A stretch of 64,000 nt of DNA, taken from the sequence record MK295204, one strand, 5' to 3'. Numbering within the stretch: the first letter of the stretch is position 1; every line of letters begins with the position of its first letter. The position numbers and the translations under genes are program-made. This stretch comes from Shigella phage vB_SdyM_006. Of this stretch, positions 7,501-38,358 are shown piece after piece. Below the pieces are notes generated by a model, which was given only the letters and a program-made list of their open reading frames with translations, did not search any database and had not been told where the DNA came from.

Positions 7501-8751
7501 ATGACCAATAAGATTCAAAAATTATTGCGCGAATCAAGTACAACAGCCAGTTCATCTAATGGACGTCCTGATCTTGTTGGGTTAACACGCGCAACACATG
7601 ATTTAATTTTTACAGATTTAATTGCAATACAGAATACAAATCAGCCAGAAGCGACTCTTTATGGTGTCAAATATTTAAATGACAATAAAGATATGAGTTT
7701 TATGACACCAGCTACATATTCTGGTGCTATAAAATCAAGAGAAAATATCGAAGAACTTGACCCATCTAAATCATATTCTAAAGATGATATGTTTAAATTT
7801 GAAGAAGTGGTTTATAAAGTCGTTAAAGATAATCCATTTACAGATTTGACGTCATTACCAAAAAATGAAGCTTTAGGCCAAGCAATTATAGATGGTTCTA
7901 TTAGATTTATGTCTGAAGCGGCATTAACTGGGCATTTTGAAAAGAAAGACGTAGAAATAGCAGAAGCTTCTGTCAGATTAGATCGTTGGAATATTCCTGT
8001 AAGAACAAGAAAAATTAAAACAGAGCTCACAGTTGAATTTGCTCAAGACTTAAATTCAAACCAGTTTGAAGCAGGTGCCGTAATTGATGACATGTTAGCT
8101 ACTATTTTAGCTGAAGATGTTAATAAAGACGTTATCCAAAAAATTATGACTGTTTCTAGTCGATATAAGGTTAAAGGAATTTCTGATAAAGGAATGTTAG
8201 ATTTAACCAAAACGGATGTTGCTCCTGAACAAGGACGTACTTTATATCGTTATATTTGTGAAATGAATGCGTCTATCGAAAGAAATACAACTTATGATGG
8301 GACATATGTTTTAGCTAGTTCAAGATGTGCTGCTATTTTGTCTGCATCAGGTTGGATGGATATTAATCCTGATTATCCTTTAGCCGCTGGCACACTTAAA
8401 AATGGCTTACCTGTTTATTCTGACCCTTGGTCTCCTGTTGACTATGTAGTTGTAGGAACTAAACAAAACCTTGGTGAGCTAGAACATGTAGGTTCTTTAT
8501 TCTATGCACCTTATATTGATTTTGATGGCGCAGGTGCTTATAAATTAGTTGTCGATCCAGATAGTTTACAACCTAAACTTGCTTTAATGGTCCGATATGG
8601 GTTATCAATTAATCCATATACAGTCATTGAAGTAGACGAAACACCTCAAAAAGAATCTATGTTAGTTCAAGGTGATGATTGGGACAATTTAGTTGGTAAG
8701 TCTAAAATGTCATATATTTTAGGTGTTCAATTACCTAAACTTATAGAATAA
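7501..8751 (+). CDS. 24: capsid vertex protein (gp23 paralogue)
   Basis: 416 aa, directly downstream of gp23; C-terminal pattern RYGLSINPY echoes the gp23 fold. Confidence 0.88.
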   Translation: MTNKIQKLLRESSTTASSSNGRPDLVGLTRATHDLIFTDLIAIQNTNQPEATLYGVKYLNDNKDMSFMTPATYSGAIKSRENIEELDPSKSYSKDDMFKFEEVVYKVVKDNPFTDLTSLPKNEALGQAIIDGSIRFMSEAALTGHFEKKDVEIAEASVRLDRWNIPVRTRKIKTELTVEFAQDLNSNQFEAGAVIDDMLATILAEDVNKDVIQKIMTVSSRYKVKGISDKGMLDLTKTDVAPEQGRTLYRYICEMNASIERNTTYDGTYVLASSRCAAILSASGWMDINPDYPLAAGTLKNGLPVYSDPWSPVDYVVVGTKQNLGELEHVGSLFYAPYIDFDGAGAYKLVVDPDSLQPKLALMVRYGLSINPYTVIEVDETPQKESMLVQGDDWDNLVGKSKMSYILGVQLPKLIE

Positions 8752-8765
8752 TTTATTTAATTTCC

Positions 8766-8806
8766 GGTAATTTATTACCTTTTTTGGGAACTTCGGTTCC
8801 CTTTTT
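8766..8806 (+). terminator. tandem terminators after gene 24
   Basis: GGTAA-TTTA-TTACC + TTTTTT, then GGGAAC-TTCG-GTTCCC + TTTTT. Confidence 0.75.
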
Positions 8807-8807
8807 A

Positions 8808-9371
8808 TTAGAAAAAATCATCTAATGTAAACTCTTTATATCCTATCATTTCTTTGAATTCGCACATCACTATTGGGTTATATAAATTATAAGTCTTTAT
8901 CCCTAAATAACGTGCTAGATAAACAGCTGTTCTTGTCCCTCCAGAAACATTCCCATATTTATCCTCAGGTGCCCAAAATATAACTGAATCAACAGGATTT
9001 TCTAAAGTAGGTGTTAATATTTGCATACAATTTCTACATTGAAGATGTTTAACAGTTTTAGAAACACTGTCTAATTTAGGATAAAATCTTCTTATAATAT
9101 TAGCGGCTTTTTCTTGGATTTCGTCATTAAAGTCTGTAAATATATGAACACCATTCCCAGAATAGTGATTATTGAACCCCTGGTGAGGAATAATAACACA
9201 TTTATTTTCAGATGAGTATTTCTTCATAAACAAATAATCACTCCCAGGCGCTCCTCCTGATGTTCCTAGCACTCCTAAATTAGAAATATATTCTCCACCA
9301 CTTATTAAAATATTAGATAAACGACTTGGTATTTTTCTTGACCCTATTAAAGCTACAGAATTTTTAACCAT
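8808..9371 (-). CDS. SLOG/DprA-like Rossmann-fold protein
   Basis: N-terminal pattern LIGSRKIPS...GTSGGAPGSD and C-terminal GGTRTAVYLARYLGIKTYNL resemble the DprA/LOG/YpsA (SLOG) glycine-rich nucleotide-binding loops; motif-level call only. Confidence 0.45.
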   Translation of the reverse strand: MVKNSVALIGSRKIPSRLSNILISGGEYISNLGVLGTSGGAPGSDYLFMKKYSSENKCVIIPHQGFNNHYSGNGVHIFTDFNDEIQEKAANIIRRFYPKLDSVSKTVKHLQCRNCMQILTPTLENPVDSVIFWAPEDKYGNVSGGTRTAVYLARYLGIKTYNLYNPIVMCEFKEMIGYKEFTLDDFF

Positions 9372-9380
9372 GCTAACCTC

Positions 9381-9400
9381 AAAAAGGACCCGAAGGTCCT
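9381..9400 (-). terminator. hairpin terminator 14 nt upstream of SLOG-like gene start
   Basis: AGGACC-CGAA-GGTCCT with T-run on minus strand. Confidence 0.55.
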
Positions 9401-9405
9401 TTAAT

Positions 9406-9561
9406 TTATTGTAAAGCTAAAATTAAACCCACAATAATAAACCATAACACAAACCCAATCCATAATGGTGATAACACCCATAGCCAAGACCAAGCAATGA
9501 CACCAACTAGTTTTAAAACAATAAACACAATACCTAGTACACCCAAAAATCCAATTTTCAT
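9406..9561 (-). CDS. small hydrophobic protein, 51 aa, likely membrane-embedded
   Basis: My own translation: MKIGFLGVLGIVFIVLKLVGVIAWSWLWVLSPLWIGFVLWFIIVGLILALQ; start 2 nt after upstream gene stop; followed by a hairpin terminator; below the ORF-track length cutoff. Confidence 0.35.
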   Translation of the reverse strand: MKIGFLGVLGIVFIVLKLVGVIAWSWLWVLSPLWIGFVLWFIIVGLILALQ

Positions 9562-9562
9562 A

Positions 9563-9808
9563 TTACCAACCTGTTATTTGTATTATATTAGAATCAAATT
9601 GGGTTCTTTTAACAGTTAACCCTTCGTTTTGTAATTTTGTAATAACTTTCTCTTGGACTCGGTATGAGATTTCACCTAGAGTCCAAGTTAAACTATCATA
9701 CCCATGTTTAGATTTAAGCATTAATCGCTTTGCAATATCATTAAACACCTGTTTAGATTCAAGCTCAACTAAGCTATCTTTAGAATCTTTTAATTTATCA
9801 ATAAACAT
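9563..9808 (-). CDS. hypothetical protein
   Basis: 81 aa ORF tightly packed downstream of rnlB. Confidence 0.4.
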   Translation of the reverse strand: MFIDKLKDSKDSLVELESKQVFNDIAKRLMLKSKHGYDSLTWTLGEISYRVQEKVITKLQNEGLTVKRTQFDSNIIQITGW

Positions 9809-9815
9809 AATAAAC

Positions 9816-10820
9816 CTATTTTGTAATTAAATTGACCCAATCTTTTCGAATGAATTCTTGTATTTCTTTTTGAATAGATTTCTTGATTAATGCTGGGTCA
9901 TCGTAATCAAGAATATCATGCCCGTCTTTTAACATATCTTTTAAAACATCCTGCATCATTAGACCTTGAACTTTGCCAAAATCTTTTGAAGATATTTCGC
10001 CAACATGGCTAATCACATTAGATAAACGTTGTGCAGTGATATATGATGTAGAAAAATTAACCAGTTCTTGGTCGTCATTTGATAATTCTGGTGTAGGTCT
10101 AATTGTTTTTACTTTACCAGTTTCTTTGAACTTAGCATTTTTACATTTAAAAATTACACGGCTTTTATTATTGAACTGTGTTGGAGTAATAGGTTTAAGA
10201 ACATAACCTTCTGCAATATTTTCTGAACCTTCTTTTTGAGGACCAAATACGTGGGCATTTGCAGCCGGAATACCATGTTCTTTTACTATTGCATTAAATT
10301 CTGGGATTAAAGAATCAAATGAACGCTCTAAATTACTTAATTCATCAAAGTCACCAGTTAAAATAACAGGGCAGATTTTAAGATTTGTTTTAGAAGATAA
10401 CATTCTTAAAAATAAAGCATCTACTAAATCACCATTAATTAAAATATCAAATACCCAGAAATCTTTTTCTTCGTAATCTACTTCTCGTTGAATACCAGGG
10501 CCTGCATATTCGCCAAAGACTGTTAAAAGTTCTAAGTCAGGCATTGATTCTTTAACAGTATTAAACATGTCAAGAATGTTTTGTTTATAACGCTTTAAGA
10601 TTAATTCGTATCCAAAAAATGCTTCAGATTCACCAATAAGATTAGTTCGTTTTGCACAAACAACATCTACACCATCACAAATAAAACTAAAATTAGTCCC
10701 ATGTATTTTTTCTTGGGCAATCCAAGGAATACCTGGTGCTGTTTTTCCTTCAAAAAAGGCCTTTTCTACTAATTTAGTGTTATCAATATTTTCAATAGAA
10801 TCATATTTAATAAATTGCAT
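9816..10820 (-). CDS. rnlB: RNA ligase 2
   Basis: 334 aa; nucleotidyltransferase lysine motif KIHGTN, plus blocks GYVLKP and KCKN-KF and GKVQGLMMQDVL matching T4 Rnl2. Confidence 0.9.
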   Translation of the reverse strand: MQFIKYDSIENIDNTKLVEKAFFEGKTAPGIPWIAQEKIHGTNFSFICDGVDVVCAKRTNLIGESEAFFGYELILKRYKQNILDMFNTVKESMPDLELLTVFGEYAGPGIQREVDYEEKDFWVFDILINGDLVDALFLRMLSSKTNLKICPVILTGDFDELSNLERSFDSLIPEFNAIVKEHGIPAANAHVFGPQKEGSENIAEGYVLKPITPTQFNNKSRVIFKCKNAKFKETGKVKTIRPTPELSNDDQELVNFSTSYITAQRLSNVISHVGEISSKDFGKVQGLMMQDVLKDMLKDGHDILDYDDPALIKKSIQKEIQEFIRKDWVNLITK

Positions 10821-11156
10821 TTATACCTCAAACAATCGTATTTTAAGACTAGTTGTATATTTGATTTCTAAATTATAAACTTTACCACTATAAACAACAA
10901 GAATTTTATTTGGGTTTTCTTCACACCACATTATATTATCGTCATTAATAATGTTTAAAAATTCTAGCTCTGAATAACAAGCCCACGAGAATGATTTACT
11001 TAAAAACTCTTTTAAATCAAGCCAATCGGTTTCGTCACAAATAGCAGGACTCATAACAGCAAGTTTGTGGGTATATGTTTCTTTATCACACCAACGAGTA
11101 AAAAACACTTCACGTTTTTCTTCTAAAGGAATAACACCAGCAGTATACCAAGACAT
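10821..11156 (-). CDS. hypothetical protein (paralogue of next gene)
   Basis: C-terminal NKILVVYSGKVYNLEIKYT aligns with NSILVLYIGESTQLEVKFT of 11166..11450. Confidence 0.4.
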   Translation of the reverse strand: MSWYTAGVIPLEEKREVFFTRWCDKETYTHKLAVMSPAICDETDWLDLKEFLSKSFSWACYSELEFLNIINDDNIMWCEENPNKILVVYSGKVYNLEIKYTTSLKIRLFEV

Positions 11157-11165
11157 AATAATTCC

Positions 11166-11450
11166 TTATTTGATTGGGATGATTCTAAATTTGTATTCAC
11201 CGCCACGAGTAAATTTAACTTCTAACTGAGTTGATTCACCAATGTAAAGAACCAAAATTGAATTTTTATTAGAACGTAACCAGTCTTGATATTCTTCAAA
11301 AGACTTGCGTAAAGATGGGATGCTATTTTTATATCGGCCTAAAATAGTCCATGAGAATTCACCACTGCCCATCCATTTAGTGGAACGGTCATATTTTAAA
11401 AGGTTTTCAATATCAATATTTAACCATGTTTTAAAGTTTTCTTTAATCAT
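11166..11450 (-). CDS. hypothetical protein (paralogue of previous gene)
   Basis: 94 aa; shared C-terminal motif with 10821..11156. Confidence 0.4.
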   Translation of the reverse strand: MIKENFKTWLNIDIENLLKYDRSTKWMGSGEFSWTILGRYKNSIPSLRKSFEEYQDWLRSNKNSILVLYIGESTQLEVKFTRGGEYKFRIIPIK

Positions 11451-11650
11451 TTTCTTACCTTCATTCGTTTACGATAAACTACTTTTTCGCGAGTTTTAAA
11501 TTCCTTCTGTTTTTGTTCAACTTCAATATAAACAGAAGCCATTTCTTTAGCTGTTCCACCCATTTTTCTGGCTATATCAACAAAGTGCATACCTTGTTGT
11601 TTAAGAAAGTGGATTTTTATTTTATCATGATTTGTCATTATTTTCTTCAA
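11447..11650 (-). CDS. hypothetical small basic protein
   Basis: 67 aa ORF; 4-nt overlap with downstream gene. Confidence 0.35.
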   Translation of the reverse strand: MKKIMTNHDKIKIHFLKQQGMHFVDIARKMGGTAKEMASVYIEVEQKQKEFKTREKVVYRKRMKVRK

Positions 11651-11831
11651 AATCTTTACAGATATCCAAGAGTTTTTTGTTTAAAGCTTCAACAAATTCT
11701 GTAGCTGAATCAGGGTATTCGTTAAATAAATAACACAAATACTCACTATGTATTTCATGGGCCACTTGAGAAACCATAGTCTTAAGTTCTTTATTCATAT
11801 AATCACCTCTCAATAATGTGTATTCTATCAT
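11625..11831 (-). CDS. hypothetical protein
   Basis: 68 aa ORF; overlaps both neighbours by about 26-29 nt, so the true start may be internal. Confidence 0.3.
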   Translation of the reverse strand: MIEYTLLRGDYMNKELKTMVSQVAHEIHSEYLCYLFNEYPDSATEFVEALNKKLLDICKDFEENNDKS

Positions 11832-12237
11832 CTAAAATATCATTAAGCATAGGACCAATGACATCCCAATTTAAGCCACCATTAGAACACCCTGGTTTAG
11901 GCAGGAGAACTCTTTTAAAATTGTTATTAGATACTATCTCCATTAATTCTAATGCACTCTTACGTATCAGGTCTTTATCAGACTTGTTATACCAATCATG
12001 TTTAGTAGGAAATGATATTAAATTAATGTTATTATATTTCGTAAGAATTCTGCATACATGGCCGTATTGGATTAAGGATTTAGCCATGATTAAGTCTAAA
12101 TTAGGAACCTTCAACGAAAAGAGACGGGCAATTCCGGCTCCCATAACAGCTCTTTTATTTTTCTTGATATTCATGTTTGTTGTAATGCAAATAGCATCAC
12201 AAGGGATATCAAGAATATTTCCAGATACTATTTTCAT
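11803..12237 (-). CDS. macro-domain protein (ADP-ribose binding/hydrolase fold)
   Basis: 144 aa; N-terminal GNILD-x4-DAICITTN and glycine loop AVMGAGIA, C-terminal LLPKPGCSNGGL, resemble macro-domain signature loops. Confidence 0.55.
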   Translation of the reverse strand: MKIVSGNILDIPCDAICITTNMNIKKNKRAVMGAGIARLFSLKVPNLDLIMAKSLIQYGHVCRILTKYNNINLISFPTKHDWYNKSDKDLIRKSALELMEIVSNNNFKRVLLPKPGCSNGGLNWDVIGPMLNDILDDRIHIIER

Positions 12238-12656
12238 AAAGCTTCTTTTAAAACTTCTATAGCATGCTTAATTTCAAAAGGGATACCTTCTGATGGATGC
12301 TGGCGAATGTTATCGTCAATATGACTAAAATCCATGCCAATTACACGGACTTTATATTTTTGCTCACTATCAAATTCTGATATATTAGAACCCCAAGTGT
12401 TTGATGATGTAACTTCTTTAGTCTCAAAATAAGTACATCCACAATGACAATATTCGTGCCAAAAATCACAGTCTTTATCAAATAAAGGGTGGTCTTCGCG
12501 AAGAGTTAAATATACCGCATAACTCCAATCCGGACGACCATCATTAAATAAAGCTTTATAACTAGGTGGTAATCCTGTAAACCATGAAGTAACTTCAATA
12601 GCTTCGCCTTTCTTTTTATCTGCATGAACAGTGTATACATATTTTTGAATAGACAT
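12234..12656 (-). CDS. hypothetical protein with His/Cys cluster
   Basis: 140 aa; contains WHEYCHCGC (HExxH-like plus Cys cluster); start overlaps stop region of downstream macro gene by 4 nt. Confidence 0.45.
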   Translation of the reverse strand: MSIQKYVYTVHADKKKGEAIEVTSWFTGLPPSYKALFNDGRPDWSYAVYLTLREDHPLFDKDCDFWHEYCHCGCTYFETKEVTSSNTWGSNISEFDSEQKYKVRVIGMDFSHIDDNIRQHPSEGIPFEIKHAIEVLKEAL

Positions 12657-18324: not shown

Positions 18325-18829
18325 TTTGGAATAATCCTAATATGTCGTCGCCATAAACAACTTTGTCTTCAAGGTTTATAGCAATACTTTTTCCAAGTTC
18401 ATCAGCCCATTTATACACAAAAGCTGGCATACTACCAAAATCAACTTTTTCTAAACATAATGTTTCTAAAAGTTCTTTAGCTGAAGTGAATCTTTCTCCT
18501 GGTAATATGTCTCTAAATTTATATTCTTTTCCTTGATAAGTAAATTTAGGTGTTGGTAATAGATAAACATCATTTATTGAGTAAGTTTTATCTTTATATA
18601 CGAATGTGTCTGTACATTTACCATTAAATTCGGCTAAATGAAGCAAGACTAAATGAGCTTCTTTAAATGACAAATTTTTATCTACAGAATCAAGAACTAT
18701 TTTTAAAGTATCTTCTGGAGATTTAGCTTCTTTGAATTTGTCATAATAATTAAGTCCGAGTTTAGGAATTGTTAATTCTTTTCCATTTATATTAATCTTC
18801 TTCAGTGGAAGAATTATCTTTAATTTCAT
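18311..18829 (-). CDS. 28: baseplate hub distal subunit
   Basis: 172 aa vs 177 in T4; position between gp27 and gp29. Confidence 0.65.
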   Translation of the reverse strand: MKLKIILPLKKININGKELTIPKLGLNYYDKFKEAKSPEDTLKIVLDSVDKNLSFKEAHLVLLHLAEFNGKCTDTFVYKDKTYSINDVYLLPTPKFTYQGKEYKFRDILPGERFTSAKELLETLCLEKVDFGSMPAFVYKWADELGKSIAINLEDKVVYGDDILGLFQNENT

Positions 18830-19937
18830 TTTTTACCTTAATATGATCTACTGGTTTAAGAATTTTACTATTACTGAACATGTAAATATGTGTAAAACTC
18901 TGATTATTAGACATTTCATGTATAACAGAATCTACATAAAAAGTACTTAAGAACTGATTCTTAGGGTCATAGAATTCTAATTTATTTCCAGGCGTTATAT
19001 CAAAATCCCCATAAGTTGTACATTTTGCATAGGAATCATATTGAGCCATTGTATTTAATTTAGTCGCTTCTTCATACCCATTTCTAAATAACTGATCTGA
19101 ATACCCGCCATTTCTCGAAACTAAAATAGAATTTTCGCCATTTCCATTCACTATCCTAGTACAAGTTTTATCAATCATACTAAAAGAATATATAGTCGAG
19201 TTTTCGTATGGGTTTCTATTATGAGAATTTGTTTTTGTTATCCATTCAAAATCATATGCAAGTGGATATTCAAGTTGATCTGCAAATTGTCCAACCATTA
19301 ACGGTTCTCCGACTACCATTTCCTTAACTTTTGAATTAATGATTTGTTGGAAATCTGTGACGTGGATCCCATTAAAATCATCCCAAACCAAAGCAAACAT
19401 ATCAGATGCAACAGAAATACCAGTATCTCTAACATAGTCCATATATTCCTTAATTCCAAGAACCCATGGAACTAAAGGAACGTGAATATTCGTGCCAGTG
19501 ATCGTAGGTTTCAATAAAGGGGTGTCGGTATATAAAACATTTATCATTTCTTCTATAGTCTCTGTGGCGTTCTTGAAGAACACTCGACTAAATTTAAGAT
19601 TTTTATTTTTATACGGTGGAATCAATTGCATTGTAATAATGTTATCGCCTTTTTGATCAACTGATACAGAAGAATATTTTACGGCATAAATTCTATTTTT
19701 AGTTATTGATGTATTTGCATTACCTACAGAAATTTGGATTATTTGGTCTCCATCTAATTTAGTATGCATATTTTTATGATCGTAAATTTGTAACATCCCT
19801 TCGTTGGTCCCGTATAAATCATCTCTAATTGTCAACGAAGTAAAAGTTCCTGCTAATTCTATAAATCGGTTTTCTAACCAAGCATCATAACTTTGGTATA
19901 ATTTTATCGATATATTAGGATAACCCACCTTTTGCAT
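18792..19937 (-). CDS. 27: baseplate hub protein
   Basis: 381 aa vs 391 in T4; position after gp51. Confidence 0.8.
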   Translation of the reverse strand: MQKVGYPNISIKLYQSYDAWLENRFIELAGTFTSLTIRDDLYGTNEGMLQIYDHKNMHTKLDGDQIIQISVGNANTSITKNRIYAVKYSSVSVDQKGDNIITMQLIPPYKNKNLKFSRVFFKNATETIEEMINVLYTDTPLLKPTITGTNIHVPLVPWVLGIKEYMDYVRDTGISVASDMFALVWDDFNGIHVTDFQQIINSKVKEMVVGEPLMVGQFADQLEYPLAYDFEWITKTNSHNRNPYENSTIYSFSMIDKTCTRIVNGNGENSILVSRNGGYSDQLFRNGYEEATKLNTMAQYDSYAKCTTYGDFDITPGNKLEFYDPKNQFLSTFYVDSVIHEMSNNQSFTHIYMFSNSKILKPVDHIKVKNEIKDNSSTEED

Positions 19938-34260: not shown

Positions 34261-34589
34261 TAAACCAACCTTAAAATGTCTTCATACTTCATAGAATTAA
34301 CAGAAATAATTGATTCTGTTGTAATAGAACGCCATGCATTAATCTCTGTATCAAATACTCGGATATATGATGGTGTTTTTGTTTCTTTTTCTGTTAAAGG
34401 TTTAGAACTATCTTGTTTAGGATGATGTTCTTCAGGAATAATATCATAATCTAGTGTACAGCGAATAACTCTAATAGAACCATCTTTTTTAGTAAAAACA
34501 ATTTCATTTTTACCATTATGTAGTAAGGTTTTAATTAAAGCAGTTAATTTAGCTTTTCTTTCTTCTGTAAGTTTCATTTTACACCACAA
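34260..34589 (-). CDS. conserved hypothetical protein
   Basis: 109 aa ORF between cd and gene 31. Confidence 0.45.
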   Translation of the reverse strand: MWCKMKLTEERKAKLTALIKTLLHNGKNEIVFTKKDGSIRVIRCTLDYDIIPEEHHPKQDSSKPLTEKETKTPSYIRVFDTEINAWRSITTESIISVNSMKYEDILRLV

Positions 34590-35125
34590 TAGTTAGTTAT
34601 AGTAGACCAATCAATATGATTGAGATTAGAACGCTCATATTTAATAACTTCAATTCCAGAATCTAATAAAATCTGGTCCCATCCAGGAACATTGCGATCA
34701 TATGTTTCTGCATAAACAAGTTTTTTAATACCAGATTGAGCAATCGCTTTAGCACAATCAGGACATGGCGATAATGTTACATACATTGTTCCGCCATCAA
34801 TAGAAATACCATTACGAGCAGCAAAAATAATTGCATTTAATTCTGCATGGATTTCATGTTTAGAAGACCATGCATTATGTTGCTCACGGAATTCCATATT
34901 TAATCCTGTAATAGTTTTAGGACGAGGACCTGGAACAATAATAGGTTTAGTCCAACCTTTTTCTGCTGCATGGTCGCAGCAATTGACGCCACCAGTAGGA
35001 GAACCATTATAACCAGTAGAAATGATTCTTCCACCTTTTTCAATAACAGCACCAACTTTCCAAGAAACACATTTAGATTCTTGAGAAATGATATAAGCAA
35101 GTTGGAGATATGTCGAAGCTTTCAT
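34574..35125 (-). CDS. cd: dCMP deaminase
   Basis: 183 aa; N-terminus MKASTYLQLAYIISQESKC-SWKVGAVIEK-GRIISTGYNGSP nearly identical to T4 Cd; zinc motifs HAELNAI and PCPDCAKAI. Confidence 0.93.
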   Translation of the reverse strand: MKASTYLQLAYIISQESKCVSWKVGAVIEKGGRIISTGYNGSPTGGVNCCDHAAEKGWTKPIIVPGPRPKTITGLNMEFREQHNAWSSKHEIHAELNAIIFAARNGISIDGGTMYVTLSPCPDCAKAIAQSGIKKLVYAETYDRNVPGWDQILLDSGIEVIKYERSNLNHIDWSTITNYCGVK

Positions 35126-35411
35126 TAGAACGATCCTCTATGTATTCTAAACATTTAGACGGAGTTTGAACCTGTACATCATAAGTATGGCTCTCATAAT
35201 TGAATTCTGCTTTAACAACATATTTTAAAGCATGTTCTGGGTCCATTAATTGAATTAATGTATGGATTGTTGATTTCAAATTTAATTGAAGTTTCCAATC
35301 GCATATCTCAAATAAATTATTTTTATGCCATTGTTCAATATACAAACGAAGAAACTCATCCAAATTTTCTGGAGATGCATGATTTAATTCTTTTACAACT
35401 TTAATACTCAT
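35073..35411 (-). CDS. hypothetical protein
   Basis: 112 aa ORF; 52-nt overlap with cd start in another frame. Confidence 0.35.
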   Translation of the reverse strand: MSIKVVKELNHASPENLDEFLRLYIEQWHKNNLFEICDWKLQLNLKSTIHTLIQLMDPEHALKYVVKAEFNYESHTYDVQVQTPSKCLEYIEDRSNESFDISPTCLYHFSRI

Positions 35412-35413
35412 TA

Positions 35414-35752
35414 TTATTCCTTAAGCATATACATATAAACTAAATAGGTTGTGTTTCTAGTTTTTACAATAGCTACTCTATCATCTAACATTTTAAAGCT
35501 CTTTACAGTAGATGTACTAACATAAGTTTCATCTTTAAATCGATTAGAAATATCACTGTAAATAAGTCCAGAAATACCAAATCTGGCTTCTAAATTAACT
35601 TCAAGAATATGCTCTAATTTATCAGACATTCGATGTCCGATAACAGCTAGAATAGCATCGCATGCACAAGCATTTCGAATAGAAGATAATTCAGATTCTT
35701 GGTTTTGCCCTATTTTATCTTCAATTGCGTTAATCAATTTTTCTGTTTTCAT
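35414..35752 (-). CDS. hypothetical protein
   Basis: 112 aa ORF immediately downstream of the DAHP synthase gene. Confidence 0.45.
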   Translation of the reverse strand: MKTEKLINAIEDKIGQNQESELSSIRNACACDAILAVIGHRMSDKLEHILEVNLEARFGISGLIYSDISNRFKDETYVSTSTVKSFKMLDDRVAIVKTRNTTYLVYMYMLKE

Positions 35753-36723
35753 TATAAGTCCACAATTAATTGTGCAGTGTCAAAGATATCAATACAAGGA
35801 TCTGTAATTGATACACCCCATAAAAGATTATCGGAAATCTTTTGATTACCTTCTATTAAATTACTTTCAATCATAAGCCCAAAAGTATTTTTAGCTTTAA
35901 TTGCTTCTTTAGCTACATTAATTTGGTTTTTAAAATTACCTTCACAATTAGCGTGTGAGCAGTCAACCATAACTGGAATCTCTAAAGACTCAATATATTC
36001 TTTAGAATAATTAGTTTTATATTCTTTACCGATTTTACCACCACGTAAAATAATATGCGTATTTAGATTTCCACTTGCATAGATTTTACTAATCACGCCA
36101 TCCATATTAATACCTAAATACGAATGTGGAAAAGCTGAACTCTTCATAGCATCTAATGCTACTTGAATATCACCTGATGTTGAATTTTTAAATCCAACGG
36201 CCATAGGCAGCCCAGAAGCTATTTCACGATGAGTCTGTGATTCTGTTGTTCTAGCGCCGATAGCAGTCCAACTAAAAATACCAGATAGATACTTAATAGT
36301 AAATGGGTCTAAGACCTCTGTCGCCAAAGGAAGCCCAAGATTCAATAGTTCTATGCATAAGTGACGAGCAATTCTTAACCCTTCATCCATGTTAAACGAA
36401 CCATTTAATTCAGGGTCATTAACAAGTCCTTTCCAACCTACGGTTGTACGTGGCTTTTCAAAATAGACCCGCATTACTAAAAGACATTTATCACCAATAT
36501 GGTTTTGTAATCTTTTTAAATACTGCCCGTAAATGACCGCTTGTGCTGGGTCATGAATAGAACAAGGCCCAACAACGATCAGTTTTTTAGAACTCACGCC
36601 AGAAATAATATCTTTAACTTCTTGGCGATGATTTTCCACTTGTTGCTTTAATTCATCAGAAATTGGCAACTCATCATGTAGCTCTTGTGGTGTGCTAATA
36701 GTTTTAACGTGCATGGATATCAT
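35752..36723 (-). CDS. 3-deoxy-D-arabino-heptulosonate 7-phosphate (DAHP) synthase, class I (AroG-like)
   Basis: 323 aa; collinear with E. coli AroG: VVGPCSIHD, MRVYFEKPRTTVGWKGL, GARTTESQTHRE-ASGL, HIILRGG, DCSHAN, ESNLIEGNQ, SITDPCI; all four AroG metal ligands (Cys, His, Glu, Asp) conserved. Confidence 0.88.
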   Translation of the reverse strand: MISMHVKTISTPQELHDELPISDELKQQVENHRQEVKDIISGVSSKKLIVVGPCSIHDPAQAVIYGQYLKRLQNHIGDKCLLVMRVYFEKPRTTVGWKGLVNDPELNGSFNMDEGLRIARHLCIELLNLGLPLATEVLDPFTIKYLSGIFSWTAIGARTTESQTHREIASGLPMAVGFKNSTSGDIQVALDAMKSSAFPHSYLGINMDGVISKIYASGNLNTHIILRGGKIGKEYKTNYSKEYIESLEIPVMVDCSHANCEGNFKNQINVAKEAIKAKNTFGLMIESNLIEGNQKISDNLLWGVSITDPCIDIFDTAQLIVDL

Positions 36724-36964
36724 ATTCCTCTGAATGGATTAAATGAGTATCATCTTCGATTTTTAACCATAACGTTAATTTAAAAATACCTAAACGACAA
36801 CTGATATCCCATTCAACATCTGATTTAAATAGTGTTTTGAAAATACGATTGACCTGATAAACAATAGCTTCATCAGTAGAAGCATAATCAGAACACATGG
36901 AAATTACGCCTTGAGCCATATCTGATATTGATAATTGCTTAGGAACTTTGTATACATTACACAT
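36704..36964 (-). CDS. hypothetical protein
   Basis: Start set at internal ATG preceded by GGAGA (MCNVYK...), about 86 aa. Confidence 0.35.
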   Translation of the reverse strand: MCNVYKVPKQLSISDMAQGVISMCSDYASTDEAIVYQVNRIFKTLFKSDVEWDISCRLGIFKLTLWLKIEDDTHLIHSEEYDIHAR

Positions 36965-37163
36965 AAAGAATTCTCCAAGTATATCCACCTTCTGGATATT
37001 CACCAATAATAAAATATTGAATACCTTTTGGCGATTCAACTGTTACTAAAACTTCATTAATAAACCCAGAATTAATAGTATTGTGTGAGTTTAAAGTTAC
37101 AGTTGAATCAACTATTTTTTCTGAGAGAGCTTTTGCAAACTCTCTAACTTTATTTTTAAACAT
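36957..37163 (-). CDS. hypothetical protein
   Basis: 68 aa ORF. Confidence 0.35.
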   Translation of the reverse strand: MFKNKVREFAKALSEKIVDSTVTLNSHNTINSGFINEVLVTVESPKGIQYFIIGEYPEGGYTWRILYV

Positions 37164-37168
37164 TATAA

Positions 37169-37360
37169 TTAACCTAAGTTTAAAACAACTTTTTTAATTT
37201 CGCAATCAGGGCCGAAACGAGTATCTATTGCATCTTTAGCTTCTTTGAATGATTTGTACAAACACAAATGTTCTTCTCGTTTTCGTGTAAAGATTCCTTG
37301 CGAAATAGAAATACCTTGAATCATAAAAGTATTTTTACGAAAAATTGCAAATAATTCCAT
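37169..37360 (-). CDS. hypothetical protein
   Basis: 63 aa ORF abutting pnk stop. Confidence 0.35.
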   Translation of the reverse strand: MELFAIFRKNTFMIQGISISQGIFTRKREEHLCLYKSFKEAKDAIDTRFGPDCEIKKVVLNLG

Positions 37361-38358
37361 TAAAAGTCACCTCTATTAACTTGCCAGCACTCAAGTCCAA
37401 GAACTCGCCACATATCAACTACTTGTTGACGGTCATCTAAAACATAAAGAACATTATACCTATTTGCAATGTGTTTGTAAAACAATTCTTTCTTAACAAT
37501 AGAATCTTTTCTATGATCTTTATGACTACGCATAATAAGCTTAGAATATTTTACGCCGTGTTTGTTAAGCCATTTTTCGGTCCCAATACGATGCTCTTTT
37601 TCTTCACCTTCTTCGCGTCCAGATGTTAATAATATCTCAACACCTAAATCATGCATCATATTAATATGATTAATAACATTTTGACGAGGTGTATCTTTCC
37701 ATAATTTATACAGGTCATGTGGGCTACGATGATTGTTGTCAGCAATAGTTCCATCAATATCAACAATAATAGCTTTAGGCAAATCTAAAGTCTTAGACCA
37801 ATCAGGAACACCATGCAAGTAATGTTGCATTTTTTCATAAAACGAATAAATTACTGCTGGAGGAACTGCTGATTCTCCACGGTACAAGTTTCGTTTATAT
37901 AGTGTTTCTAAGTCTTCATCAAAATAAACCCAATCAAGCTGGTATTTAAAGGTTTTAGCAATATCTTTCCATTTATCTCGTGTTTTTGGATTTAAGTTTG
38001 TGTCTGACACAATAACAATGCGATGACCAGATTTATTAAGCCATTCAACTGCGAGCAATTGCTGTTTATCTGTAACTTCTCGCTCACGTTGTTTTGATGG
38101 CTTATATTCATTACGCTTGCAATTAAATAGTTCACAGCGTAAATCATCACGATTAACATTTAGAACAATACCTGGATTAGCAGATACCATTTCTTCAGCC
38201 CAAGTAGATTTACCAGAACCTGGTGCACCAACTGTCATAATAATTTGTTTTACAAATTCTTCTTTTGGTTTTGGAATATCATAACCCATGTACTTAAGAA
38301 CCTGTTCATTTTCAATATTAACCCAAGTAATATCATCACTTTGCATTGGTACAAACAT
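37360..38358 (-). CDS. pseT: polynucleotide 5'-kinase / 3'-phosphatase
   Basis: 332 aa; P-loop GAPGSGKST, HAD motif IIVDIDGTIA, C-terminal VDMWRVLGLECWQV-RGDF matching T4 Pnk. Confidence 0.93.
   Translation of the reverse strand: MFVPMQSDDITWVNIENEQVLKYMGYDIPKPKEEFVKQIIMTVGAPGSGKSTWAEEMVSANPGIVLNVNRDDLRCELFNCKRNEYKPSKQREREVTDKQQLLAVEWLNKSGHRIVIVSDTNLNPKTRDKWKDIAKTFKYQLDWVYFDEDLETLYKRNLYRGESAVPPAVIYSFYEKMQHYLHGVPDWSKTLDLPKAIIVDIDGTIADNNHRSPHDLYKLWKDTPRQNVINHINMMHDLGVEILLTSGREEGEEKEHRIGTEKWLNKHGVKYSKLIMRSHKDHRKDSIVKKELFYKHIANRYNVLYVLDDRQQVVDMWRVLGLECWQVNRGDF

What the first reader, a model, noticed from the sequence alone, without database searches (positions are those of the whole stretch)
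35752..36723. Class I DAHP synthase encoded inside a T4-type early gene cluster
A full-length AroG-like DAHP synthase sits between dCMP deaminase and Pnk, where T4 carries only small cd.x ORFs. The match to AroG is collinear along the protein, and the four metal ligands (Cys in GPCSIHD, His in DCSHAN, Glu in ESNLIEGNQ, Asp in ITDPCI) are all present, so it looks catalytically intact. The first committed step of the shikimate pathway is not an expected function for a lytic myovirus; it could boost aromatic precursor supply or feed a shikimate-derived product. No other shikimate-pathway gene is visible in this window.
Basis: partly seen in the sequence, partly recalled or inferred. Interest (0 to 1): 0.65.

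Follow-up and report, generated by a model that had tools for sequence, protein, structure and literature searches.

The report
Phage DAHP synthase, likely prephenate supplier
The gene is a real, intact first enzyme of the shikimate (aromatic) pathway that is already annotated in about 200 T4-like phages; comparative genomics suggests it lacks normal feedback control and supplies prephenate to a phage iron-sulfur hydroxylase that could make the 5-hydroxycytosine of the phage's sugar-coated DNA without oxygen.

Summary
Window 35752-36714 (minus strand, 320 aa) encodes a type I-alpha DAHP synthase with every catalytic residue intact, under strong purifying selection.

It is not a new discovery. 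The window is about 98.8% identical to Proteus Bragavirus phages, where the gene is already annotated. 212 phage records carry a homologue, and it matches PHROG 5045.

Three points appear to be new:
- **Lost feedback site.** The phage clade lacks the N-terminal regulatory segment. It also carries fixed substitutions at classic feedback-resistance positions (AroG P150, Q151, D155, S180, F209).
- **Matching distribution.** Among T4-like phages the gene tracks a U32-family Fe-S protein encoded in the arabinosyl-5-hydroxycytosine DNA-modification cluster. In three genera a chorismate mutase gene sits next to that U32 gene. Acinetobacter (strict aerobe) phages with the same DNA modification lack all three genes.
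- **Independent adjacency.** In unrelated uncultivated phages, a regulatory-domain-less type I-beta DAHP synthase lies directly after the same U32 subfamily.

Cellular U32 enzymes (RlhA, TrhP, UbiU/V) perform O2-independent hydroxylations that consume prephenate.

Best explanation (inferred, untested): a deregulated DAHP synthase feeds prephenate to the U32 enzyme for O2-independent 5-hydroxycytosine synthesis.

The parts
35752..36714 (-). DAHP synthase CDS (type I-alpha, phage clade), 320 aa plus stop
   Evidence: Pfam 6e-67; TIGR00034 390 bits; AF2 pLDDT 93.6; Foldseek TM 0.91-0.94 to solved DAHPS I-alpha structures. dN/dS 0.11 against the Pm5461 homologue.
36715..36723 (-). Three extra codons (MIS) if the first in-frame ATG were used; probably not translated
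   Evidence: GAGGAA lies only 1 nt from this ATG. SJ_PmiM annotation and cluster representative P0001 start at MHVKT.
36725..36730 (-). Shine-Dalgarno GAGGAA, 10 nt upstream of the ATG at 36714
   Evidence: Read directly from the sequence.
36704..37039 (-). Upstream small ORF (phrog_36851, unknown function) whose stop overlaps the DAHPS start, suggesting translational coupling. The annotated homologue in SJ_PmiM is 261 nt (window about 36704-36964).
35414..35752 (-). Downstream small ORF (phrog_25745, unknown function). Its ATG overlaps the DAHPS stop (TAATG).
35073..35411 (-). Small ORF (phrog_27608, unknown function) between the DAHPS block and cd
34574..35125 (-). dCMP deaminase (cd), conserved downstream flank of the locus
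   Evidence: The order pseT - small ORFs - DAHPS - (0-2 ORFs) - cd is also found in Mosigvirus JS09, Winklervirus CBH8 and Marfavirus Potts1.
37360..38358 (-). Polynucleotide kinase/3'-phosphatase (pseT), conserved upstream flank
37453..37481 (-). Best sigma-70-like promoter match on the coding strand (TTTACA-17-TATAAT, 11/12), about 740 nt upstream of the DAHPS start; candidate only
   Evidence: Promoter-like sites in the region are not enriched over shuffles (28 found against 33.6 expected).

Best explanation
The gene encodes a catalytically competent, metal-dependent type I-alpha DAHP synthase (PEP + erythrose-4-phosphate -> DAHP). It is expressed within the phage's early nucleotide-metabolism gene block.

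The phage clade has lost the canonical aromatic-amino-acid allosteric site. The enzyme should therefore commit carbon to the shikimate pathway whatever the Phe/Tyr/Trp levels. This overrides the host's main control point; the host's own downstream enzymes would then make chorismate.

I propose that the main purpose is prephenate rather than amino acids. A phage chorismate mutase, encoded in the same lineage next to a U32-family Fe-S protein in the DNA-modification cluster, or host PheA/TyrA, converts chorismate to prephenate. The U32 enzyme then uses prephenate as a stoichiometric oxygen donor to make 5-hydroxycytosine without O2. This would run in parallel with the known O2/flavin-dependent thymidylate-synthase-like 5-hydroxy-dCMP synthase. 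The 5-hydroxycytosine is subsequently arabinosylated.

**Shown here:** enzyme identity, fold, catalytic residues, purifying selection, phage-specific clade, altered allosteric residues, co-distribution, and gene adjacency.

**Inferred:** feedback insensitivity, the flow to prephenate, the U32 substrate, and the anaerobic role.
For: **Identity and integrity.**
- Family, structure and fold matches.
- All 14 catalytic or substrate-binding positions are invariant.
- dN/dS is 0.11 and 0.04.

**Deregulation.**
- In 25 phage-clade sequences against 98 nearest cellular homologues plus E. coli AroG and AroF, AroG P150 becomes I, Q151 becomes K, D155 becomes G, S180 becomes P and F209 becomes Y. These changes are fixed in the phage clade (24-25 of 25). 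All five positions are invariant in the cellular set.
- The N-terminus is 8-12 residues long before the AroG P19 column, against 17-24 in cellular enzymes, which removes the AroG D6/D7 region.
- PMC9529685 documents P150L and S180F as feedback-resistant, and Q151 and S180 as contacts to the inhibitor main chain.

**Link to U32 and prephenate.**
- (a) Record counts by host genus, DAHPS / U32: Escherichia 125/137, Klebsiella 25/26, Shigella 11/13, Proteus 7/7, Serratia 6/7, Enterobacter 4/4, Providencia 3/3, Edwardsiella 3/3.
- (b) RB69 ORF050 and phiP4-3 gp179 are Peptidase_U32 above Pfam's gathering score. Nine Cys are invariant across 122 family members.
- (c) A CM_2 chorismate mutase gene lies between the U32 gene and the TS-like hydroxylase gene in Bragavirus phiP4-3, Winklervirus LC53 and Marfavirus PWKp16.
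- (d) Acinetobacter phage Maestro has every other cluster gene but no U32 and no CM. The 'Acinetobacter' DAHPS hits that were examined are host-like aroF genes in multi-contig records.
- (e) Independent lineages: in uncultivated PolB- and DnaE-type phage contigs, a U32 gene of the same subfamily is directly followed by a 248-260 aa type I-beta DAHPS lacking its regulatory domain, usually with overlapping stop and start. This holds in 4 of 5 contexts examined. In L097 the pair sits inside an araGT1-like - API - AfhE-like - U32 - DAHPS cluster.
- (f) Aeromonas phage HJ05 has a DAHPS 3 kb from a CmoA-like gene; CmoA also consumes prephenate.

**Literature.**
- RlhA (U32) makes 5-hydroxycytidine and needs prephenate and Fe-S clusters (PMC5727448).
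- TrhP is prephenate-dependent and O2-independent, and is paired with O2-dependent TrhO (PMC6599085).
- Prephenate is the O donor for UbiU/V and is consumed to phenylpyruvate (PMC10990095).
- The phage 5hodCMP synthase uses O2 and flavin (PMC13326640).
Against: - No experiment supports any step beyond homology.
- In T4-like phages the DAHPS gene is about 100 kb from the U32 cluster. The co-distribution there is phylogenetically confounded, amounting to a few independent contrasts.
- The link is not obligatory. RB69 lacks the gene at the cd-pseT locus. About 12 Escherichia, 6 Yersinia (Tegunavirus) and the Shewanella Thanatos records have U32 without DAHPS.
- Mosigviruses have no recognisable chorismate mutase at the corresponding position.
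- The TS-like enzyme alone makes 5hodC in aerobic E. coli (PMC13326640).
- That paper guesses 'sugar or heterocycle reductase' for RB69 gp50.
- Five of six other U32 contexts sampled starting from the U32 side had no DAHPS within 8 kb.
- Feedback insensitivity is inferred from residues only. The conserved new residues could bind a different effector.
- Two key papers (He et al. 2026 Nat Chem Biol; Mahler et al. 2025 Cell Host Microbe) could not be read.
Confidence: 0.5

Rival explanations
1. Generic auxiliary metabolic gene. The deregulated DAHP synthase simply raises aromatic amino-acid supply (or folate/quinone precursors) for phage protein and nucleotide synthesis, with no specific link to DNA modification.
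For: DAHPS is the flux-controlling, feedback-inhibited step of the pathway (PMC9529685), so a single deregulated gene would suffice. The gene sits among nucleotide-metabolism genes (cd, nrdAB, td, frd) that depend on folate. The gene is dispensable in RB69.
Against: It does not explain why, among T4-like phages, the gene is confined to lineages carrying the U32 gene and is absent from other T4-like coliphages. All Escherichia hits were ~58-59% identical, and those checked also carry the RB69-type cluster genes. It does not explain the U32-DAHPS operon in unrelated phages. It does not explain the phage chorismate mutase, which diverts chorismate specifically to prephenate.
Confidence: 0.25
2. 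Prephenate or chorismate supply for a different consumer, for example tRNA/rRNA hydroxylation or carboxy-SAM-type chemistry, or another small molecule, rather than cytosine C5 hydroxylation of phage DNA.
For: Aeromonas phage HJ05 pairs DAHPS with a CmoA-like gene. A giant-virus contig carries DAHPS, CM_2 and an Elp3-like radical-SAM enzyme. The substrate of the phage U32 protein is unknown.
Against: In the T4-like phages and in L097, L100 and L101, the U32 gene sits inside the cytosine hydroxylation/arabinosylation cluster next to the first arabinosyltransferase homologue. RlhA provides a precedent for C5 hydroxylation of cytosine.
Confidence: 0.12
3. Erythrose-4-phosphate sink. Irreversible DAHP formation pulls the non-oxidative pentose-phosphate pathway toward pentose phosphates (ribulose-5-P) needed for nucleotides and UDP-arabinose.
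For: The arabinose pathway starts from ribulose-5-P (PMC13326640). DAHPS-positive T4-like phages all carry the arabinosylation cluster.
Against: Acinetobacter phages make arabinosyl-5hoC without DAHPS. DAHPS tracks U32 rather than API or Aat. The route wastes two PEP equivalents per pentose. It does not explain the chorismate mutase.
Confidence: 0.06
4. Altered substrate specificity. The enzyme condenses PEP with arabinose-5-phosphate or another sugar phosphate (KDO8P-synthase-like) to make a different acid sugar.
For: DAHPS and KDO8PS are homologous. The phage makes arabinose-5-P through its own isomerase. One I-beta relative (L104) lies in a KDO-like glycan cluster.
Against: The DAHPS-type KPRT motif and all E4P/PEP contact residues are retained. 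NCBIfam scores DAHPS equivalogs far above any KDO8PS model. Consuming arabinose-5-P would compete with arabinosylation.
Confidence: 0.04

Closest known systems
E. coli AroF (Tyr-sensitive) and AroG (Phe-sensitive) type I-alpha DAHP synthases (PDB 6agm, 1kfl, 1qr7)
   Same: Same fold (TM 0.91-0.94), 46-48% identity, identical metal ligands and PEP/E4P-binding residues. The beta6a/6b hairpin is retained.
   Different: About 30 residues shorter. The N-terminal segment that contributes D6/D7 to the inhibitor site is absent. P150, Q151, D155, S180 and F209 are replaced by I, K, G, P and Y. It scores below the NCBIfam AroG and AroH equivalog cutoffs (326 against 568; 345 against 463).
Engineered or selected feedback-resistant AroG/AroF variants (P150L, S180F, D146N, Q151 substitutions)
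   Same: The phage clade naturally carries non-wild-type residues at P150, Q151 and S180. These are the positions whose mutation abolishes inhibition (PMC9529685).
   Different: The phage residues (I, K, P) are not the laboratory substitutions. They are fixed together with an N-terminal truncation, and resistance has not been measured.
PHROG 5045 / annotated 'phospho-2-dehydro-3-deoxyheptonate aldolase' of Mosigvirus, Marfavirus, Winklervirus and Bragavirus phages
   Same: The window's protein is a member (E 3e-158). It is 99.7% identical to the phiP4-3 protein, sits at the same cd-pseT locus, and forms a monophyletic clade.
   Different: None at the sequence level. What is added here is the regulatory-site analysis and the link to U32 and chorismate mutase.
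U32-family prephenate-dependent hydroxylases RlhA (ho5C2501), TrhP (ho5U34) and UbiU/UbiV, with the dual O2-dependent/O2-independent logic of TrhO/TrhP
   Same: The proposed consumer of the pathway is a U32-domain protein with invariant Cys clusters. It is encoded beside an O2-dependent enzyme that makes the same product type, a C5-hydroxylated pyrimidine.
   Different: The phage U32 is a separate subfamily. Its best NCBIfam hit is UbiU at only 15-18 bits, and it has no PDB sequence hit. Its substrate would be a deoxynucleotide or DNA. Activity is untested. The PNAS paper describes U32 proteins as almost exclusively bacterial or archaeal.
Regulatory-domain-less ('unadorned') type I-beta DAHP synthases
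   Same: The U32-linked DAHPS of uncultivated phages (P0241-P0256, 239-267 aa) consist of the catalytic barrel only. Their nearest cellular relatives (335-340 aa) carry the PF18152 regulatory domain. This parallels the loss of regulation inferred for the window's I-alpha enzyme.
   Different: A different DAHPS subtype from the window's gene. It is relevant only as an independent, convergent association.

Membership tests
Type I-alpha DAHP synthase (AroF/G/H family; Pfam PF00793, TIGR00034) | Profile score above the curated cutoff over the full length | tested here: met
   PF00793: 225.7 bits (cutoff 25.5). TIGR00034: 389.6 bits (cutoff 173.2). PRK12755: 405 bits (cutoff 343).
Type I-alpha DAHP synthase | (beta/alpha)8 barrel fold superimposable on solved DAHPS structures | tested here: met
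   AF2 pLDDT 93.6, pTM 0.92. All top 50 Foldseek PDB hits are DAHPS I-alpha, with TM 0.91-0.94 and rmsd 1.7-2.4.
Type I-alpha DAHP synthase | Metal ligands Cys-His-Glu-Asp (AroG C61, H268, E302, D326) | tested here: met
   All four are present, and invariant in 25 phage and 98 cellular sequences.
Type I-alpha DAHP synthase | PEP/E4P-binding residues including the KPRT motif (R92, K97, P98, R99, T100, G163-R165, K186, R234) | tested here: met
   All are conserved. The motif is KPRT rather than the KDO8PS-type motif.
Type I-alpha DAHP synthase | N-terminal extension plus allosteric inhibitor site (AroG D6/D7, P150, Q151, S180, F209 and others) | tested here: not met
   The N-terminus is 9-13 residues shorter. 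P150I, Q151K, D155G, S180P and F209Y are fixed in the phage clade. The beta6a/6b hairpin itself is retained in the model.
Type I-alpha DAHP synthase | Catalysis of PEP + E4P -> DAHP; complementation of an aroF aroG aroH mutant | not testable with these tools
   Requires an enzyme assay or genetics.
Isozyme equivalogs AroG / AroH (NCBIfam NF006723, NF009396) | Score above the equivalog cutoff | tested here: not met
   AroG model: 326 bits against 568. AroH model: 345.5 bits against 463. The tree places the phage clade beside AroF-type enzymes.
Phage DAHPS family (PHROG 5045) | Profile match and shared genomic position in T4-like phages | tested here: met
   E 3e-158 over 4-322. The cd-pseT locus is conserved in four genera. 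Monophyly is supported 100/100.
Proposed partner: U32-family Fe-S hydroxylase (encoded outside the window, in close relatives) | Peptidase_U32 domain and conserved cysteines for Fe-S binding | tested here: met
Proposed partner: U32-family Fe-S hydroxylase | Prephenate-dependent, O2-independent hydroxylation activity | not testable with these tools
   Known genetically only for RlhA, TrhP and UbiU/V. No data exist for the phage subfamily.
AroQ (type II) chorismate mutase (encoded outside the window, in close relatives) | CM_2 profile above the gathering score | tested here: met
   phiP4-3 gp176: 43.4 bits. LC53: 44.6 bits. PWKp16: 39.5 bits (cutoff 27). Not met for RB69 ORF049.

The most novel reading that the evidence does not exclude
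Many phages of facultatively anaerobic hosts run a virus-encoded supply line for an oxygen-free version of their DNA hypermodification. The line runs from a deregulated DAHP synthase through the host shikimate enzymes, then a phage or host chorismate mutase, to prephenate, and finally to a phage U32 Fe-S hydroxylase. Each of the ~53,000 cytosines per genome would cost one prephenate. This would be the first viral use of prephenate as an oxygen donor, the first DNA-directed U32 hydroxylase, and an AMG whose purpose is cofactor supply for epigenetic armour rather than biomass.
Probability: 0.45. Interest if true: 0.85.

Novelty: new variant of a known kind. Interest (0 to 1): 0.5.

Why it matters
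The gene itself is ordinary and already annotated, so its existence is not news.

What matters is the proposed reason for it. If the link holds, it gives a function to a widespread phage gene previously listed as 'function unknown'. It also assigns a role to the unexplained, extremely conserved U32 gene in the arabosyl-5-hydroxycytosine cluster: the U32 protein is 83-86% identical across genera whose DNA polymerases are 65-70% identical. It would explain how gut phages can hypermodify all their cytosines where the known O2-dependent hydroxylase cannot work.

It would extend prephenate-dependent hydroxylation from RNA and quinones to DNA and to viruses.

It makes concrete predictions: anaerobic phenotypes of DAHPS, CM and U32 phage mutants; 18O-shikimate labelling of phage DNA; and dependence on host aro genes.

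In practice this bears on phage-therapy candidates (Mosigvirus, Marfavirus, Bragavirus), whose resistance to restriction and CRISPR depends on this modification. It also offers a naturally feedback-insensitive DAHPS scaffold for metabolic engineering.

Tried and rejected
- **DAHPS as part of the arabinose branch.** Rejected. The distributions of API (RB69 gp55) and Aat (RB69 ORF003c) include 55-57 Acinetobacter phage records that lack DAHPS. Marfavirus has DAHPS but no API.
- **Recent capture from the host.** Rejected. The phage clade is monophyletic (100/100). The nearest cellular sequences are Pasteurellaceae AroF-like enzymes at 49-53% identity. GC3 (0.23) matches the neighbouring phage genes.
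- **Strict DAHPS-CM co-occurrence within Mosigvirus.** Not found. JS09 (DAHPS+) and RB69 (DAHPS-) both carry the ORF049-type small gene with no CM_2 signal.
- **Acinetobacter DAHPS hits as a counter-example.** They turned out to be host-like aroF genes at the ends of contigs in 'MD-2021a' multi-contig records. Only 2 of the 4 records were displayed.
- **Searching ±10 kb around 80 IMG/VR DAHPS loci for U32, CM or TS-like genes.** Mostly uninformative. Many loci are giant-virus MAGs or prophage flanks with aroF-tyrA operons.
- **Promoter and terminator scans.** No enrichment over shuffles.
- **Literature searches for a tested function of phage DAHPS, or for any phage U32/prephenate link.** Nothing found.
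- **Bootstrap with Biopython's BLOSUM distance.** First attempt timed out. It was redone with Kimura distances.
- **Whole-genome absence of DAHPS in RB69.** Not verified. Only the syntenic locus and 57 kb of the genome were examined.
Full report
**1. Observation.**

The ORF at 35752..36723 (minus strand) is real. Reading the DNA places a GAGGAA Shine-Dalgarno at 36730-36725. It lies 1 nt from the first ATG and 10 nt from the second ATG at 36714. The likely product therefore starts MHVKT and is 320 aa long, as annotated in the near-identical phage SJ_PmiM. The stop overlaps the next ORF's ATG (TAATG). The upstream ORF's stop overlaps the DAHPS start. The gene is thus embedded in a translationally coupled run of early genes between pseT (37360-38358) and cd (34574-35125).

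Family assignment is unambiguous:
- Pfam DAHP_synth_1, E 6e-67.
- TIGR00034 aroFGH, 390 bits against a cutoff of 173; PRK12755, 405 bits against 343.
- E. coli AroF structure 6agm, E 8e-93.
- An AlphaFold2 model with pLDDT 93.6. All of its top 50 PDB neighbours are type I-alpha DAHP synthases, with TM 0.91-0.94.

dN/dS against the Proteus phage Pm5461 orthologue is 0.11.

**2. It is already known as a gene.**

The 3.9-kb region is 98.8% and 98.5% identical to Proteus phages SJ_PmiM and phiP4-3 (genus Bragavirus). There the gene is annotated as phospho-2-dehydro-3-deoxyheptonate aldolase. tblastn finds a homologue in 212 phage records, mostly Escherichia/Shigella Mosigvirus, Klebsiella Marfavirus, and Serratia, Enterobacter, Providencia, Edwardsiella and Proteus phages. 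It matches PHROG 5045 at E 3e-158. Olsen et al. 2020 list a DAHP synthase in Mosigvirus among AMGs of unknown function. I found no paper testing its function.

The locus (pseT - small ORFs - DAHPS - 0 to 2 ORFs - cd) is the same in Mosigvirus JS09, Winklervirus CBH8 and Marfavirus Potts1. RB69 has only cd.2-cd.4 at that position.

**3. A phage-specific clade, not a recent host capture.**

Phage proteins are 319-343 aa long. The nearest cellular proteins (Pasteurellaceae, AroF-like) are 350-359 aa long and 49-53% identical. Sixteen phage-clade sequences are monophyletic in 100 of 100 NJ bootstraps, sister to AroF-type enzymes. GC3 (0.23) resembles that of cd (0.16) and pseT (0.21).

**4. The allosteric site is gone or remade.**

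I aligned 25 phage-clade sequences with 98 cellular homologues and E. coli AroG, AroF and AroH. The results:
- Every catalytic position is invariant in both groups.
- AroG P150, Q151, D155, S180 and F209 are invariant in all 98 cellular sequences and in AroG and AroF.
- In 24-25 of the 25 phage sequences these positions are I, K, G, P and Y.
- The phage N-terminus is 9-13 residues shorter, which removes the segment containing AroG D6/D7.

According to PMC9529685, P150L and S180F give feedback resistance. Q151/Q152 and S180/S181 bind the main chain of the inhibitor. D155 forms a stabilising salt bridge. That the N-terminal residues of the neighbouring subunit complete the inhibitor site, and that N-terminal changes in AroF (N8K, delta-I11) desensitise it, is my own recollection of the DAHPS literature.

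Inference: the phage enzyme is insensitive to Phe, Tyr and Trp. The replacement residues are themselves conserved, so a new effector cannot be excluded.

**5. Why would a phage want that? First lead and its rejection.**

Many DAHPS-positive phages are those known to carry arabinosylated 5-hydroxycytosine (Thomas 2018, PMC6024577; PMC13326640). phiP4-3 has the full RB69-type cluster between gp43 and uvsX. It comprises an arabinose-5-P isomerase, AfhE-like and AfhF-like genes, a TS-like 5hodCMP synthase and the first arabinosyltransferase.

DAHPS does not track the arabinose genes, however. API and Aat occur in 55-57 Acinetobacter phage records that lack DAHPS, and Marfavirus lacks API.

**6. 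The gene it does track.**

RB69 ORF050, a 389-aa protein in that cluster, is a Peptidase_U32 family member. Its record counts by host genus almost coincide with those of DAHPS:

| Host genus | U32 | DAHPS |
|---|---|---|
| Escherichia | 137 | 125 |
| Klebsiella | 26 | 25 |
| Shigella | 13 | 11 |
| Proteus | 7 | 7 |
| Serratia | 7 | 6 |
| Enterobacter | 4 | 4 |
| Providencia | 3 | 3 |
| Edwardsiella | 3 | 3 |

No Acinetobacter group appears in the U32 tally.

Acinetobacter phage Maestro is stated in PMC13326640 to contain arabinosyl-5hodC. It has homologues of every RB69 cluster gene except U32 and the small gene next to it. The 'Acinetobacter' DAHPS hits that I could see are bacterial-type aroF genes at contig ends of a multi-contig record.

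Between the U32 gene and the TS-like gene lies a small gene that is a type II chorismate mutase above Pfam's gathering score. This holds in Bragavirus phiP4-3, Winklervirus LC53 and Marfavirus PWKp16. It does not hold in RB69 or JS09.

The U32 protein is 83-86% identical across genera whose DNA polymerases are 65-70% identical. It has nine invariant cysteines in 122 homologues.

**7. Independent lineages.**

The phage U32 subfamily has many metagenomic relatives at about 50-58% identity. They sit in phage DNA-metabolism or glycosylation neighbourhoods containing dCMP deaminase, dUTPase/DCD, UDG-like genes, glycosyltransferases, UDP-galactopyranose mutase, and DnaE or PolB.

In an 80-kb DnaE-type phage contig (L097) the gene order is araGT1-like, API, AfhE-like, U32, DAHP synthase, epimerase. 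This DAHPS is of the other subtype, I-beta (PRK08673 E 3e-70; KDO8PS models only 3e-17). It consists of the catalytic barrel alone.

It belongs to a clade of 239-267-aa proteins. Their nearest cellular relatives are 335-340 aa long and carry the PF18152 regulatory domain. In four of the five contexts of this clade that I examined, the U32 gene lies immediately upstream, usually overlapping. These contexts sit on both PolB/T4-portal and DnaE backbones. The fifth context is a KDO-like glycan cluster.

Two different DAHPS subtypes, both stripped of their regulatory elements, are therefore associated with the same phage U32 subfamily.

A further phage, Aeromonas HJ05, has a DAHPS 3 kb from a CmoA-like gene (TIGR00740, E 7e-35, below cutoff). 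CmoA also consumes prephenate (PMC6599085).

**8. What U32 proteins do.**

- RlhA (U32) is required for 5-hydroxycytidine 2501 in 23S rRNA, together with Fe-S biogenesis and prephenate synthesis (PMC5727448).
- TrhP (U32) makes ho5U34 in a prephenate-dependent, O2-independent way. TrhO does the same using O2 (PMC6599085).
- Prephenate is the oxygen donor for UbiU/UbiV. The proposed mechanism consumes it to phenylpyruvate and CO2 (PMC10990095).
- The phage TS-like 5hodCMP synthase is flavin- and O2-dependent (PMC13326640, citing He et al.).
- PMC13326640 lists RB69 gp50 only as a structural match to 5d88, with the guess 'sugar or heterocycle reductase'. It never mentions prephenate, chorismate or U32.
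- The Thanatos paper did not test its U32 gene.

**9. Proposed mechanism.**

The deregulated DAHPS opens the pathway's control valve. Host AroB-AroC make chorismate. Phage CM, or host PheA/TyrA, makes prephenate. The U32 enzyme uses it to hydroxylate cytosine C5 when O2 is unavailable. Arabinosylation follows.

This accounts for several features:
- Only the first, flux-controlling enzyme is carried.
- Its feedback site is lost. In amino-acid-rich, anoxic habitats host DAHPS is inhibited.
- A mutase that commits chorismate to prephenate accompanies it.
- Phages of the strict aerobe Acinetobacter lack all three genes.

On scale, the window's GC of 0.317 implies about 52,600 cytosines per 166-kb genome. 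With a burst of about 100, that is roughly 5 million prephenate molecules per cell. By my own estimate from standard E. coli composition, this is near a tenth of a cell's aromatic amino-acid content.

None of these steps beyond enzyme identity has been tested. I put about 0.9 on DAHPS activity, about 0.7 on loss of aromatic feedback, and about 0.5 on the prephenate/U32 purpose.

**10. Weak points.**

- The T4-like co-distribution is largely inherited and gives few independent contrasts.
- U32-positive phages without DAHPS exist: RB69 at least at the syntenic locus, Yersinia Tegunavirus, and Thanatos.
- Mosigvirus lacks a recognisable CM.
- Most U32 contexts sampled from the U32 side lack a nearby DAHPS.
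- Two directly relevant papers were not readable.

**11. Verdict.**

As biology, the remodelled allosteric site and the recurrent association with U32 and chorismate mutase give a specific, testable and apparently unreported function.

Noticed in passing
L097 4939-10804; L103 5913-8659; two JGI 3300075153 contigs: A conserved U32 -> DAHPS (type I-beta, barrel only) gene pair, usually with overlapping stop and start. It occurs in uncultivated phages with either PolB or DnaE replication modules, next to UDG-like, epimerase, dCMP deaminase, API and nucleotidyltransferase genes.
   Followed up: partly
L015 (Aeromonas phage HJ05) 2645-3382, 6257-7420, 7554-7904: A 79-kb non-T4 phage carries a DAHPS 3 kb from a CmoA-like (carboxy-SAM synthase, prephenate-using) gene, directly followed by an Acb2/Tad1-type anti-defence sponge. 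All three are annotated 'hypothetical'.
   Followed up: partly
L091 (IMG/VR 71.6-kb contig) 9899-10954, 18738-18977, 7755-9833, 10947-12338: A giant-virus contig (NCLDV major capsid protein) encodes a DAHPS, a small CM_2 chorismate mutase (E 3e-18) and an Elp3-like radical-SAM/GNAT protein. Many other IMG/VR DAHPS hits are giant-virus MAGs.
   Followed up: no
L002 26492-27661 (RB69 ORF050); L010 12458-13624; L011 19638-20795: The phage U32 protein is 83-86% identical between Escherichia, Klebsiella and Proteus phages whose DNA polymerases are only 65-70% identical. This is unusually strong constraint for a gene with no assigned function.
   Followed up: partly
L009 5743-8129 (RB69 cd-pseT locus); L002 26256-26495: RB69, the type phage for arabinosyl-5-hydroxycytosine, has no DAHPS at the syntenic locus. 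Its small gene between the U32 and TS-like genes gives no chorismate-mutase signal. The rest of the RB69 genome was not checked.
   Followed up: partly
L098 7447-9939; L099 7504-9826: In two DnaE-type phage or megaphage contigs (466 kb and 60 kb), dCMP deaminase is followed by U32 and then a conserved ~250-aa protein (58% identical between the contigs) with no family match.
   Followed up: no
One search hits H4/H5 (Proteus phage PM2, MF001355): In Proteus phage PM2 a homing endonuclease is annotated within the cd-DAHPS-pseT region, which is absent from the window. The region is a hot spot of insertions.
   Followed up: no
P0001: The protein cluster 100% identical to the window's DAHPS carries the NCBI name 'Shigella phage vB_SdyM_006', although all close DNA relatives are Proteus phages. 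This may be a host label or naming inconsistency.
   Followed up: no
window 36957-37163 and 37169-37360: Small early ORFs upstream of the DAHPS match DUF7320/phrog_1504 and phrog_24304, with no known function. No tRNA genes are present anywhere in the 64-kb window.
   Followed up: no
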